NCBI GenBank assembly: GCA_031420755.1
Contig: JANONI010000177.1
Location: 1-57,696 of the forward strand
Length of the DNA: 57,696 bases
Origin: Bacteroidota bacterium
GTDB taxonomy: Bacteria > Bacteroidota > Ignavibacteria > UBA10030 > UBA8401
Reading direction: 5' to 3'
Shown here one piece after another: positions 45,001 through 48,000 of this stretch (position 1 is its first letter; each line of letters starts with the position of its first letter). The position numbers were made by a program.

Positions 45001-48000
45001 CGAATACCGTCATTGCGTTTGATGGAAAATGCTGGCAAGGCGGTTGTCGTTGAATTACTAACAAGAACCCATCCTTCGATGCGTTCCGTTAGAGAACATC
45101 GGGACTTCTGCCAAAAAAGAGGTCGAATACTCGACTCGTCGAGCGGACAAGTGCTCAGGATGACCCATGTTCTCATTTTTTGCGGGAAGGGAAATAATGG
45201 CGGCGATGGATTTGTTGTTGCACGATTACTTGTGGAAAAAGATTTCGCCGTTACGGTTGTATTGATGGAGAATGAGAAAGAATTGAGCGGTGATGCGTTA
45301 GAAAATTTTCAGCGATTGCACGATTACACGATTGCAAAATTACAAATATTGGGATTTGAAAAATTTCAAAAACTAAAGAATAAAAAATTTGACGTGATTG
45401 TGGATGCGATGCTGGGAACGTCGTTTCAGGGAACATTGAAAGGGAAGTATCGTAACGCTGTTGAGTGGTGCAATAAACAATCTTCGTTGAAAATTGCCGT
45501 TGATATTCCCACCGGATTGAACGGTGAAACAGGTGAAGTTCTTTCAAAAGCATTTCAAGCGGATGTTACCGTAACACTGTCGAATCCGAAAATTGGATTT
45601 TACAGAGAAGGAGCAAAAGAATTTACTGGTGAAGTTGTGGTTGCGAATATTGGAATTCCAAAAAAAGTAATCCATGATTATCAGAAATCAAATCAGCGAA
45701 AAATATTTCTTATTGAAGAGAGTGATGTTCAAAAGACATTTCCCAAACGAGCAAGCAATAGTCACAAACATTCTGTCGGAAAAATATTTGCGCTTGCCGG
45801 TTCAAAAAGTATGATGGGTGCAGCGTTGTTATGCAGTCAATCTGCGATGCGAAGCGGAGCAGGACAAGTAATCCTTGGAATTCCAGATTCTGAATATGCG
45901 GCAATCGCAAAACGTACAGTTGAAGTAATGCCGCTTGGACTTCCATCAACTACGGAAGGAAGTATTTCGTTCGATGCACTTGATGAAATTGAAAAGCGAA
46001 TTGCTTGGGCAAACGTTATTCTTCTCGGATGTGGATTATCCGGTAATAACGATACTCAGCAATTGATTCGTGAAATAATTAAAAATACCGGTAAGCCAAC
46101 GGTTATTGATGCAGACGGACTTAATGCGTTGGCGGGAAATCTTGATCTGCTCAAGAGCAGAAAATCACATAATATTGTTCTAACGCCTCATCGCGGAGAA
46201 TTTTCAAGACTGATTGGAATTTCTTCAAAAGAAATTGAACGAAATAAATTTTCGCTTGCCGCGAGCTTTGCTGAAGAATATAATCTTATATTAGTCTTGA
46301 AAGGCGCACCGACTATCATAGCAATTCCATCAGGGAAAATTTTTGTTAACTCCACTGGAAATCCCGGAATGTCAACAGCAGGAAGCGGAGATGTACTTGC
46401 TGGAATCATTGCATCATTGATTGGGCAGGGAAATTCTGCTTCGGACGCAGCAGTGAACGGTGTCTTTCTCCACGGCAAATCGGGAGACATTGCTGCGGCA
46501 AAATTTGGTATGTATGGAATGATTGCCAGTGATATGATAAAAAATTTACCATTGGCAATTACATCAGGGCATCTCTAAAAACATCAAAATGTAATCTGTG
46601 CAAGGTTTTATGCGAAGCATTCTTACGAATAATTTTTAAGGAACGACTAAATAGATTTTAGAGATACCCATCATTAATCGGAAAATGAACACACAACAAA
46701 AAATAATCTCTTTTCTGCAATTTCAATTACCGCTGATCGCATGGTGTGTTTTTGTTTTCACCGCATCGTCAATTCCATCGAAGAATATTCCAGCATTAGG
46801 ACTGTACTTCGATAAAGTAATTCATTTCGGAGTGTACGGAACATTGTGCTGGCTTGCGCATGTCGCATTTCATCATCAACCGAACATCTCTCTTAAAAAA
46901 TATAGTTTACCTGCGGCAATTATTTTTACGGTGGTGTTCGGCCTGTCAGACGAATTCCATCAAATGTTTACCCCCGGTCGATCGGCAGAGGTGTTGGATC
47001 TTGTTGCCGATACATTTGGCGGATTAATGTATGCTACGATTTATCTTCGATTTCGATTCTATCAAAATGCATAAACTCGTTACTCGGTTTCTTTCCCTTC
47101 CAACCTTTCGCTCGTTACGCCAAACGAACTATCGTCTTTTTTTTGCCGGACAGATATTTTCATTGGTGGGAACGTGGATGCAAACCATGGCGCAGGCGTG
47201 GCTTGTGTATCAACTTACCTATTCTTCGGTCTGGCTCGGCATTATTGGATTTTTAAATACGATTCCGATGCTGCTCTTTGCAATGTACGGAGGTTCGATT
47301 GCAGATCGGTTTTCGAAACACAAAATTATTTTGATCACGCAAAGTTTGTCATTGGTTCAGGCAATTGTTCTTTCGCTTCTGGTGTTGTTCGATATGGCAA
47401 CGGTGGAAATAGTTGCGGTATTGGCATTCACTCTTGGAACGATTAATGCATTCGATGTTCCTGCGCGTCAAACATTTGTTTTTGAATTGGTCGGAAAAGA
47501 GAATCTTCCGAATGCAATAGCATTGAACTCTGCCGCGTTCAATGCTGCGCGGATTATCGGACCGGCAATTGGCGGCGTATTGATCGCTGCTGTTGGAGTC
47601 GGGTGGTGTTTCTTTATCAACGCACTATCATTTCTTTCGGTGATTATTGTATTATTAAAACTAACGATTGCTCCTAAAGTGATAGACCAAAAGGAAACGA
47701 CAAGTGTTTTTCAGTCATTGAAGGAAAGTATTCGGTACGTAAGATCTGATATTTCATTGATTGCGTTATTGACATTGGTCGCCGTCATCACGGTTTTCGG
47801 TTGGTCGTACACTATTCTATTGCCGATCTATGCGGATAAAGTTTTGCAGATCGGAGCAGTCGGACTCGGAAATCTTATGATGTCATTCGGAATCGGCGCA
47901 TTTATCAGCGCAATCTTTGTTGCAAGTGCTGAAAGCAAGATTCGTCCGAGCAAATTTATCTATGGCGGAATATTGTTATTCGTTATTGGAATTTCTTTAT

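What the first reader, a model, noticed from the sequence alone, without database searches (positions are those of the whole stretch)
45067..45168. 96-bp palindromic repeat inserted in-frame in the nnr coding sequence, bounded by a 6-bp direct repeat
The Nnr ORF reads ...MENAGKAVVVELLTRTH[[32 protein letters not shown]]VLIFCGKGNNGGDG. The bracketed 32 codons sit just before the conserved GNNGGDG loop. At the DNA level the insert has inverted ends (catcct...aggatg) and an internal hairpin. Its core (45106-45152) is 41/47 identical to an intergenic element between nuoJ and nuoK (39121-39167), and its two termini recur at 15031-15078. ACCCAT occurs at both junctions, exactly 96 bp apart, which looks like a target-site duplication. 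Deleting one copy plus the element restores ...ELLTRTH|VLIFCGKGNNGGDG. This resembles the in-frame palindromic elements (RPEs) known from Rickettsia, here in an unrelated lineage and in a metabolite-repair enzyme.
Basis: partly seen in the sequence, partly recalled or inferred. Interest (0 to 1): 0.72.

Follow-up and report, generated by a model that had tools for sequence, protein, structure and literature searches.

The report
Nested mini-palindromes inside the nnr gene
The extra 32 codons in this NAD(P)HX-repair gene are real. They are an old, decayed stack of three tiny hairpin repeats nested inside one another and read through as a floppy protein loop. This kind of in-frame repeat is already known from Rickettsia and other bacteria, although these particular repeat families seem undescribed.

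Summary

The segment is dispersed palindromic DNA read in frame, as in Rickettsia RPEs. It is not one 96-bp element with a target-site duplication. It is a composite of three layers:
- a REP-like frame (termini CATCCTTCG / CTCAGGATGAC) with a 30-nt hairpin module
- a 24-nt module (E2) nested inside that
- a 21-nt module (E3, TCGAATACTCGACTCGTCGAG) nested inside E2

Each layer has free copies elsewhere. Orthologues carry zero, one, two or three layers at the same site.

The net gain is 25-26 codons, not 32. AlphaFold gives low confidence only to those 25 residues.

Six clean insertions of related modules show no duplication: nuoL twice, nuoM, nuoN, a SpoIIE/GAF phosphatase, and the nuoJ-nuoK spacer.

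The frame resembles the CGTC-tagged REPs of Di Nocera et al. 2013, which include RPE-4 and RPE-6 and are known to sit inside genes in several phyla. E3 occurs in at least 112 distinct metagenomic contexts, including ligA, ileS, pheT and pgi.

Verdict: a new variant of a known kind, of moderate interest.

The parts
44938..46578 (+). nnr gene, a bifunctional NAD(P)H-hydrate epimerase/dehydratase and the host of the insert
   Evidence: Pfam YjeF_N 3.4e-46 and Carb_kinase 3.1e-57. PDB 2AX3 (TM0922/Nnr) 4e-78, with the alignment broken exactly at the insert.
45067..45168 (+).
   Evidence: It folds no better than shuffles (z -0.16).
45070..45084 (+). Left terminus of the REP-like frame (E1), CATCCTTCGATGCGT. 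It encodes H-P-S-M-R.
   Evidence: Identical to 15031-15045. The same motif heads repeats in many phyla.
45154..45164 (+). Right terminus of the frame, CTCAGGATGAC. On the other strand it reads GTCATCCTGAG, with tag GGTC.
   Evidence: Identical to 15068-15078. Family-wide conservation of CTTGCTCAGGRTGA.
45079..45153 (+). Net insert of 75 nt (25 codons, MRSV...SGQV) relative to the orthologues P0008 and P0010 that lack it
   Evidence: DNA and protein alignments. It coincides with the only AlphaFold segment below pLDDT 50, residues 48-71.
45079..45106 (+). Layer 1: the 30-nt hairpin module of E1. These 28 nt plus TG at 45152-45153 make up the module. The hairpin is decayed.
   Evidence: Orthologues L005 and L008 carry only this layer (ACGCGTTCCGATAAAAAACATCGGAACTTG, with a perfect 8-bp stem in L005).
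45107..45122 (+). Layer 2 (E2), left part, TCTGCCAAAAAAGAGG. The right part is 45144-45151, CGGACAAG. Together they are 24 nt.
   Evidence: L003 carries E1+E2 without E3. Free E2 copies lie at window 1818-1843 and in the L007 nuoJ-K spacer.
45123..45143 (+). Layer 3 (E3), the 21-nt module TCGAATACTCGACTCGTCGAG
   Evidence: Copies at 39138-39158 and 19212-19232. At least 112 unique metagenomic contexts.
15031..15078 (+). Intergenic short copy of the E1 frame (48 nt, no nested modules)
   Evidence: No flanking direct repeat.
39104..39184 (+). Intergenic (nuoJ-nuoK) REP of the GTCATTGC...GCAATC type on the other strand, carrying E2+E3 nested at 39120-39167
   Evidence: The orthologous spacer in L007 has the same REP+E2 without the 21-nt E3.
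19212..19232 (+). E3 alone, in frame in a GAF/SpoIIE (PP2C) phosphatase gene (18163-20256)
   Evidence: A 7-codon insert ILSG[RRLDSLS]GEKS, absent from 15 orthologues of 54-90% identity.
1818..1843 (+). Free intergenic copy of E2, TTCCGCCAAGAAGATGGCGGACAAGT
40915..40944 (+). 30-nt in-frame insert in nuoL (two 15-nt units TCCGCCnnnGGCGGA; STGGGSASGG)
   Evidence: Clean empty site in 5 orthologous genomes and no duplication. Fold z -2.86.
41773..41802 (+). 30-nt in-frame insert of the same family in nuoM (SAEGGSASGG)
   Evidence: Fold z -3.60.
39616..39645 (+). 30-nt in-frame insert in nuoL (QPKADVPRAQ), a diverged member of the 2x15-nt family
   Evidence: (D2). The same family sits in the Nnr loop of the distant orthologue P0096.
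44463..44483 (+). 21-nt in-frame insert in nuoN (PPDGRAG; CCGCCTGACGGTCGGGCAGGT)
   Evidence: Clean empty site in 5 genomes. A reverse-complement relative at 39063-39083 is itself a 21-nt insert relative to L007.

Best explanation
**What it is.** The segment is an old, composite, REP-like palindromic insertion that is translated.

**How it was built.**
- A small repeat of the "xGTC-AT..." type colonised the loop between helix 1 and strand 1 of the Nnr epimerase domain. On the other strand this repeat reads GGTC-ATCCT-GAG...CGAAGGAT.
- Two further mini-hairpin modules then became nested inside it: E2 (24 nt), and E3 (21 nt) inside E2.
- Every module is a multiple of three nucleotides and is open in most reading frames. 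Insertion therefore only lengthens a surface loop, here by 25-26 residues that are probably disordered, and the enzyme fold is kept.
- The DNA palindrome has since decayed.

**What is shown.** The layering, the paralogous copies, the graded states in orthologues, the absence of target duplication at clean sites of related modules, and the low-confidence loop.

**What is inferred.**
- Modules are copied and removed as precise units by a hairpin-dependent, single-strand mechanism without target duplication. This would resemble the IS200/IS605-RAYT type proposed for REPs. No enzyme was identified.
- The insert has no function of its own. It persists because this loop tolerates it.
For: **Layering at the nnr site**
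- The DNA alignment of the site shows L006/L007 with no insert, L005/L008 with +30 nt, L003 with +24 nt more, and window/L001/L002 with +21 nt more.

**Free copies of each layer**
- E1 lies at 15031-15078, E2 at 1818-1843, and E3 at 39138-39158 and 19212-19232.

**Discrete gain of modules**
- E3 alone is a 7-codon insert in a phosphatase, absent from 15 orthologues.
- E3 is a clean 21-nt insert in the nuoJ-K spacer relative to L007.
- In the 22-kb syntenic stretch, four of the window-specific indels of 4 or more codons are clean mini-palindromes (nuoL twice, nuoM, nuoN) and a fifth is the composite nnr insert. The four have precise empty sites in 5 genomes and no duplication. The remaining indels vary among all the genomes.

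**Loop tolerance**
- AlphaFold2 gives mean pLDDT 81 and pTM 0.80. Only residues 48-71 fall below 50.
- Homologue spacing has a mode of 23 aa against 49 in the window.
- A different mini-palindrome family occupies the same loop in the distant orthologue P0096.

**Family level**
The hits share unrequired features.
  - CTTG precedes CTCAGG in 49 of 125.
  - The tags CCTC, TGTC or CGTC occur in 68 of 125.
- E3 has at least 112 unique contexts. 33 of 93 lie inside long ORFs, in both orientations and six reading frames, including LigA, Pgi, IleS and PheT.

**Age**
- Shared by species 63-78% identical in Nnr.
- The fold z-score is -0.16, against -2.9 to -3.6 for the three window-specific 30-nt inserts in nuoL and nuoM.

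**Gain and loss**
- A six-gene tree gives ((window,L005),(L003,(L006,L007))) with L008 as outgroup. The "empty" L006/L007 state is therefore most parsimoniously a precise secondary loss.
Against: - The repeat-homologous span (about 96 nt) exceeds the net gain (75-78 nt). Either about 6 native codons were replaced, or part of the termini is native. This is not resolved.
- ACCCAT in the window, and a differently sequenced but similarly placed GACTAA(A)C in L003, could be remnants of a real duplication.
- No transposase or other enzyme was found.
- The window's other contigs could not be examined, because the genome was not among the rows returned.
- Covariation in the E3 stem is not significant: 72 of 500 shuffles reached the observed score.
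- Translation of the insert is assumed. There are no RNA or protein data.
Confidence: 0.78

Rival explanations
1. A single 96-bp MITE-like element with terminal inverted repeats inserted once by a cut-and-paste (DDE-type) transposase and duplicated the 6-bp target ACCCAT.
For: An exact ACCCAT at both junctions, 96 bp apart, and 6-bp inverted ends. L003 has a similarly placed GACTAA(A)C pair.
Against: - The inverted ends are only 6 bp.
- The hexamer overlaps element sequence on both sides.
- There is no repeat at the 15031 copy or in 5 of 7 filled orthologues.
- The element is demonstrably composite.
- Excision would leave a 17-aa spacing never seen in 110 homologues.
- Six clean sites of related modules lack duplications.
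Confidence: 0.08
2. The same composite repeat, but spread without any transposase. The modules would be copied from ectopic repeat copies by template switching or gene conversion at hairpins and microhomologies during replication or repair, and lost by hairpin-mediated slippage.
For: - The site that lacks the insert reads TTCG|CTCAG, the same bases that flank the module in REP copies.
- The termini of the nnr copy are identical to the 15031 copy while the interior is only about 60% alike.
- New modules sit inside existing hairpins.
Against: The clean insertions in nuoL, nuoM, nuoN and the phosphatase have no evident microhomology to the module ends. A near-invariant 21-nt unit in over 100 unrelated contexts, with sharp boundaries, is more typical of enzyme-defined ends.
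Confidence: 0.25
3. The insert is kept because it does something. It could be a regulatory RNA or DNA hairpin inside the operon, or a functional extra loop next to the nucleotide-binding GNNGGDG motif.
For: Persistence across species 63-78% identical. The location is immediately upstream of a conserved motif.
Against: - The fold is no better than shuffles.
- The peptide is poorly conserved among orthologues and of variable length: 0, 10, 18 or 25 aa.
- AlphaFold confidence is low.
- There is no Rfam match.
- Close relatives do without it.
Confidence: 0.07
4. Not mobile DNA at all. This would be a lineage-specific loop expansion by local slippage, or an assembly artefact, whose similarity to other loci is coincidental.
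For: The loop is indel-prone in many homologues, with spacing of 21-49 aa.
Against: - There are 42/48 and 26/26-type matches to other loci, with zero expected by shuffling.
- The same layers occur in independent assemblies from JGI, NCBI, ENA and Logan.
- E3 is found in at least 112 contexts.
Confidence: 0.02

Closest known systems
Rickettsia palindromic elements (RPEs; Ogata et al. 2002 and Claverie & Ogata 2003, as cited in PMC3733652)
   Same: Dispersed palindromic repeats found both between genes and in frame inside housekeeping genes. They are read through and tolerated in loops, and they show gain and decay among related species.
   Different: - The lineage is a free-living Bacteroidota/Ignavibacteria-like MAG (source names).
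- The units are far smaller (21-30 nt, from my own knowledge against roughly 100-150 bp for RPE-1).
- The units are stacked one inside another.
- Sequence relatedness to RPE consensus sequences was not tested.
CGTC-tagged REPs (Di Nocera et al. 2013, BMC Genomics 14:522, PMC3733652), which include RPE-4/RPE-6 and Neisseria dRS3
   Same: - An xGTC tetranucleotide at one end (CGTC, TGTC or CCTC in 68 of 125 relatives).
- The stem starts with A-T.
- A short tail follows.
- Head-to-head pairs in spacers.
- Intragenic in-frame copies.
- No known transposase.
- Reported in Chlorobi and Bacteroidetes among other phyla.
   Different: - The described families have a continuous 8-9-bp stem and a 4-5-nt loop. 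Here there is a 5-6-bp outer stem, a conserved internal loop (GAG / CGAA) and a variable inner hairpin.
- The window copies have the tags GGTC and AGTC.
- The nesting of further modules is not described there: "nested" occurs 0 times in the text.
GTAG REPs / REPINs mobilised by RAYT (IS200/IS605-like Y1 transposases)
   Same: Hairpin repeats of 20-40 nt. They have no target duplication and act as targets for further insertions. This is a plausible mechanistic analogue for precise gain and loss.
   Different: No GTAG tag at the ends. No RAYT gene was seen, and only one contig of the genome was available.
Bacterial MITEs found inside genes (for example the enterobacterial RU elements, PMC2759123, and the Coxiella MITEs, PMC5896051; titles and abstracts)
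   Same: Small non-autonomous repeats that can lie within coding sequence and add peptide segments.
   Different: MITEs are 70-300 bp with 15-30-bp terminal inverted repeats (definition quoted in PMC3733652) and, from my own knowledge, usually target duplications. Here the ends are 6 bp and clean sites show no duplication.

Membership tests
CGTC-tagged REPs (PMC3733652) | Terminal tetranucleotide CGTC (or TGTC / CCTC) | tested here: inconclusive
   The nnr copy has GGTC (reverse complement of GACC, 45162-45165). The 15031 copy has AGTC. Among 125 relatives from the genome scan the counts are CCTC 39, TGTC 23 and CGTC 6, which is 54% against 19% expected. GGTC occurs 7 times.
CGTC-tagged REPs (PMC3733652) | Stem whose first two positions are complementary A-T | tested here: met
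   GGTC|ATCCT...AGGAT| in the nnr and 15031 copies. ATTGC...GCAAT in the spacer REPs and in the L002 linker copy.
CGTC-tagged REPs (PMC3733652) | Continuous stem of 8-9 bp with a loop of 4-5 nt | tested here: not met
   The outer stem is only 5-6 bp (CATCCT/AGGATG). It is followed by an asymmetric internal loop and an inner hairpin of variable sequence.
CGTC-tagged REPs (PMC3733652) | Short unpaired tail (consensus CCA) at the untagged end | tested here: inconclusive
   The two bases before CCTTCG in relatives are mostly GT, AT or AC. The window copy has CC-CAT. No clear CCA.
CGTC-tagged REPs (PMC3733652) | Many dispersed copies per genome, often as head-to-head dimers | tested here: inconclusive
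   There are two E1 copies and two GTCATTGC-type REPs in 57.7 kb. A head-to-head pair lies in the L008 and window nuoJ-K spacers. The rest of the genome was not available.
Rickettsia palindromic elements | In-frame insertion in conserved genes, at positions compatible with the fold | tested here: met
   Seen in Nnr, NuoL, NuoM, NuoN and the PP2C phosphatase. In the AlphaFold model only the insert has low confidence.
Rickettsia palindromic elements | Sequence homology to the RPE-1 to RPE-8 consensus sequences | not tested
   No RPE sequences were at hand. The link is only through the CGTC-REP description in PMC3733652.
MITE (transposase-derived, cut-and-paste) | Terminal inverted repeats of about 15-30 bp | tested here: not met
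   Only 6 bp (CATCCT/AGGATG) are complementary at the ends.
MITE (transposase-derived, cut-and-paste) | Target-site duplication flanking each copy | tested here: not met
   There is none at 15031-15078. There is none at the five clean in-gene insertions or the spacer E3. ACCCAT at nnr overlaps element sequence.
GTAG REP / REPIN-RAYT | GTAG tetranucleotide at the foot of the hairpin | tested here: not met
   No GTAG or CTAC at either end of the nnr, 15031 or spacer copies.
GTAG REP / REPIN-RAYT | A RAYT (Y1 transposase) gene flanked by the repeats in the same genome | not testable with these tools
   Only one contig of the genome is available.

The most novel reading that the evidence does not exclude
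The 21-nt unit E3 (TCGAAGACTCGACTCGT[T/C]GAG, invariant loop CTCGAC) and its companions (the 2x15-nt TCCGCCnnnGGCGGA unit and the 21-nt CCTGCCCG...CAGGCGG unit) would be a previously undescribed class of ultra-small, codon-length-matched mobile hairpins.

On this reading they:
- insert and excise precisely without target duplication
- prefer the arms of existing hairpins but also hit essential genes (ligA, ileS, pheT, pgi, nuoLMN, nnr)
- occur in genomes of 39-63% G+C
- build new protein loops stepwise by nesting

That would imply a dedicated, still unknown trans-acting enzyme, and a general route by which surface loops of bacterial proteins grow.
Probability: 0.3. Interest if true: 0.7.

Novelty: new variant of a known kind. 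Interest (0 to 1): 0.5.

Why it matters
This one loop gives a natural series with zero, one, two and three layers in related species, plus an independent hit by another repeat family. That series shows how selfish hairpin repeats can lengthen a protein loop in steps of 7-10 residues without breaking the enzyme.

It also extends RPE-like behaviour to a free-living Bacteroidota/Ignavibacteria-type lineage and to respiratory complex I subunits.

It flags a very small unit, E3 at 21 nt, that is abundant in metagenomes and whose means of spread is unknown.

For annotation, it explains odd low-complexity insertions in otherwise conserved proteins, and spurious antisense ORFs such as 44850..45176(-).

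Tried and rejected
- **Rfam.** A gathering-threshold search of the window and 12 repeat-bearing loci gave no family at any repeat. The only hits were an SRP RNA and an sRNA elsewhere.
- **Plasmids, phages, viral contigs.** PLSDB and GenBank phages (blastn, 81-nt spacer REP+E2+E3) gave no match. IMG/VR scanned for E3 gave no match. There is therefore no sign of a plasmid or phage vehicle.
- **Literature by sequence.** The E3 and 15-nt unit sequences occur in no paper. Hits to the shorter words were primers in unrelated papers.
- **Literature by topic.** A search on Ignavibacteria and repeats returned nothing relevant.
- **E3 stem covariation.** The stem is compatible (85% of cells paired, against 28-45% when slid), but covariation is not beyond shuffles: 72 of 500.
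- **Genome scan.** Copy number in this genome could not be measured.
- **Reading abandoned.** I first treated L006/L007 as the ancestral empty site. The six-gene tree makes a secondary precise loss more parsimonious.
- **Motifs considered by eye and dropped.** A hammerhead or kink-turn reading of the conserved GAG/CGAA internal loop was dropped because the conserved core positions do not fit.
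Full report
**1. Observation**

- The nnr ORF (ATG 44938 to 46578) carries YjeF_N and Carb_kinase domains. It aligns to Thermotoga Nnr (2AX3) in two pieces that break at the insert.
- ACCCAT lies at 45067-45072 and 45163-45168. CATCCT and AGGATG are inverted ends.
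- The core 45105-45152 is 88% identical over 48 nt to 39120-39167.
- The termini recur exactly at 15031-15044 and 15068-15078.
- The 47-nt core had no match in 100 shuffles.
- As single-stranded DNA the 102 nt fold no better than shuffles (z = -0.16). "Palindromic" now describes the segment's ancestry more than its present structure.

**2. Anatomy: three nested layers in a REP-like frame**

I fetched the orthologous loci, in which the order nuoJKLMN-nnr-vanZ-MFS is conserved. Aligning the site as DNA gives a graded series.

| Loci | State at the site |
|---|---|
| L006, L007 | ...TTCG\|CTCAG..., no insert |
| L005, L008 | +30 nt hairpin module (ACGCGTTCCGATAAAAAACATCGGAACTTG; perfect 8-bp stem in L005) |
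| L003 | a further 24 nt (E2) |
| window, L001, L002 | a further 21 nt (E3) inside E2 |

Window coordinates of the layers:

| Layer | Coordinates |
|---|---|
| Frame termini | 45070-45084 and 45154-45164 |
| Layer 1 (30-nt module of E1) | 45079-45106 plus 45152-45153 |
| E2 (24 nt) | 45107-45122 plus 45144-45151 |
| E3 (21 nt) | 45123-45143 |

Each layer has free copies.
- The E1 frame, without nested modules, is at 15031-15078.
- E2 is at 1818-1843 and in the L007 nuoJ-K spacer.
- E3 is at 39138-39158, nested in E2 inside another REP.
- E3 is also at 19212-19232.

**3. Size of the gain, and the protein**

I measured the number of residues between the AG of MENAG and GKGNNGGDG in 110 homologues.

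| Spacing (aa) | Homologues |
|---|---|
| 23 (mode) | 70 |
| 21 (minimum) | 1 |
| 24 | P0008, P0010 |
| 33-34 | those with the first layer only |
| 42 | P0002 |
| 49 | window, P0006, P0007 |

- The net gain is therefore 25-26 residues.
- AlphaFold2 on the 26-sequence alignment gives mean pLDDT 81.4 and pTM 0.80. Only residues 48-71 fall below 50, and these are the 25-residue net insert. HPS and LRMTH are modelled with the fold.
- The repeat-homologous span (about 96 nt) is thus longer than the net gain. About six codons of repeat termini stand where native loop codons would be. I could not resolve how this arose.

**4. History**

- The single-gene tree scatters the states.
- A six-gene concatenate (2919 columns) gives ((window, L005) 70%, (L003, (L006, L007) 100%) 94%), with L008 as outgroup.
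- L008, L005, L003 and the window all carry layer 1. The empty state of L006/L007 is therefore most simply a secondary, precise loss.
- E2 and E3 have been gained or lost more than once.
- The distant orthologue P0096 (48% identity) has a 30-nt insert of another family in the same loop. It is 25/31 identical to the window's nuoL insert at 39616-39645. The loop is a repeatedly used, permissive site.
- P0007, P0011 and P0014 also carry a TGTC-ATTGC-type REP in frame in the inter-domain linker.

**5. The window is full of such events**

In the 22-kb stretch shared with five relatives, four of the window-specific indels of 4 or more codons are clean mini-palindromes, and a fifth is the composite nnr insert. 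The remaining indels vary among all the genomes.

| Site | Coordinates | Size |
|---|---|---|
| nuoL | 39616-39645 | 30 nt |
| nuoL | 40915-40944 | 30 nt |
| nuoM | 41773-41802 | 30 nt |
| nuoN | 44463-44483 | 21 nt |
| nnr | 45079-45153 | 75 nt composite |

- The first four have exact empty sites in all five genomes and no target duplication.
- The three 30-nt inserts in nuoL and nuoM fold far better than shuffles (z -2.9 to -3.6). The nuoN insert does not (z -0.89).
- E3 on its own is a 7-codon insert in a GAF/SpoIIE phosphatase, absent from 15 orthologues.
- The nuoJ-K spacer of the window differs from that of L007 by two further clean 21-nt inserts.

**6. Families beyond the window**

*The E1 frame.*
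- My arithmetic expects about 34 chance matches in the whole collection.
- The hits come from many phyla and share features the pattern did not require.
  - CTTG precedes CTCAGG in 49 of 125.
  - An inner hairpin is present.
  - The opposite-strand tag is CCTC, TGTC or CGTC in 68 of 125.
- This resembles the CGTC-tagged REPs of Di Nocera et al. (PMC3733652).
  - Those have a CGTC/TGTC/CCTC tag, a stem starting with AT and a short tail.
  - They were found in Proteobacteria, Chlorobi, Bacteroidetes, Spirochaetes and Thermotogae.
  - They equal RPE-4 and RPE-6 in R. conorii.
  - They occur inside genes, and they have no known transposase.
- The stem and loop geometry here differs from their four families, so membership is not established.

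*E3.*
- There are 112 unique contexts with sharp boundaries. The three unconstrained positions are nearly fixed.
- Copies often sit in an arm of CCGCC/GGCGG or CCTGCC hairpins, or inside E1-type REPs.
- 33 of 93 copies lie in long ORFs, against 62% for random positions. They occur in both orientations and six reading frames.
- Hosts include LigA, Pgi (two copies), IleS and PheT.
- Host contigs span 39-63% G+C.

**7. Mechanism**

*Shown:* discrete modules, all multiples of three nucleotides; precise presence/absence; no duplication at six clean sites; nesting in pre-existing hairpins.

*Inferred:* a hairpin-dependent single-strand copy and excise process of the kind proposed for REPs and IS200/IS605 relatives. 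The transposase-free alternative is template switching or gene conversion.

The alternative is suggested by two observations. The junction reads TTCG|CTCAG in loci that lack the interior. The termini are identical to the 15031 copy although the interiors have diverged.

ACCCAT overlaps the element's stem on the left and its conserved GAC[C/T] end on the right. It is absent from the other copy and from most orthologues. A similarly placed GACTAA(A)C in L003 remains unexplained.

**8. Verdict**

The finding is real, and it is correctly recognised as RPE-like. It is not a single element with a target duplication, and in-frame REP-type palindromes outside Rickettsia are already in the literature.

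What seems new:
- the three-level nesting, documented by orthologues
- the hits in complex I subunits
- the 21-nt E3 unit, whose sequence appears in no paper of the library

Searches of Rfam, plasmids, phages and viral contigs found nothing.

Noticed in passing
window 39616-39645, 40915-40944 (nuoL), 41773-41802 (nuoM), 44463-44483 (nuoN): Window-specific in-frame mini-palindrome insertions of exactly 10, 10, 10 and 7 codons in complex I subunits. Each has a clean empty site in five related genomes and no target duplication.
   Followed up: yes
window 19212-19232, inside ORF 18163-20256: E3 alone adds RRLDSLS to a GAF/SpoIIE (PP2C) phosphatase. It is absent from 15 orthologues down to 54% identity.
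   Followed up: yes
window 39030-39091 and 39104-39184 (nuoJ-nuoK spacer); L007 4395-4520; L008 4395-4540: The spacer holds two GTCATTGC...GCAATC-type REPs carrying nested modules. Relative to L007 the window has two extra 21-nt inserts. L003, L005 and L006 have an unrelated palindrome (TCTCGCAAAAACGCAGAGTCGCAAAG...) in the same spacer.
   Followed up: partly
L002 866-915 (P0007); also P0011 and P0014 (alignment A1, columns about 250-285): A second in-frame REP sits in the linker between the two Nnr domains of some orthologues but not the window. It reads TGTCATTGCGAGTAGTCCCGAAGAATTCGGGACGACGAAGCAATCTCC and encodes ...VMSLRVVPKNSGRRSNLQ...
   Followed up: partly
L249 3139-3175 (P0096): A distant Nnr orthologue carries a 30-nt insert of the nuoL 39616-type family (QPKADALLAQ) in the same helix1-strand1 loop, so this loop is a recurrent landing site.
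   Followed up: yes
L033 517-556 (GCA_030679145.1, the genome of P0002): An E1-type frame whose inner hairpin is TCCGCCTCTGGCGGA, the 15-nt unit that forms the nuoL and nuoM inserts of the window. Frames and inner hairpins therefore combine modularly.
   Followed up: no
L161 (Pgi ORF of 643 codons), E3 copies at 2003 (+) and about 2156 (-): Two E3 copies in opposite orientation, about 150 nt apart, inside one glucose-6-phosphate isomerase gene. Further repeat-like peptide lies around them. L169 shows the same arrangement.
   Followed up: no
window 13934-14002 and 14557-14625: Two 69-nt copies (86% identical). Each has a perfect palindrome CCTTGTCAAGGTTTNAAACCTTGACAAGG after an A-run and GC hairpin. 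They bracket about 550 nt with no ORF of 100 codons or more and several other hairpins.
   Followed up: no
window 11822-11898 and 53949-54089: Another small repeat family (TTGCCACGAAARCACTAAAACA...), in direct and inverted orientation at two intergenic sites.
   Followed up: no
window 44850-45176 (-): A 108-codon antisense ORF runs through the insert and the nnr start. It is most likely spurious, since the repeat modules are open in most reading frames.
   Followed up: no
L009-L128 (genome-contig scan): The motif ATCCTTCGACGCG-[hairpin]-CTTGCTCAGGATGA recurs almost verbatim across several phyla. The lineages include Stellaceae (many copies), Acidobacteriota, Verrucomicrobiota, Omnitrophota, Fibrobacter, Clostridia and Bacteroidota. 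The conserved asymmetric GAG/CGAA internal loop is unexplained.
   Followed up: partly
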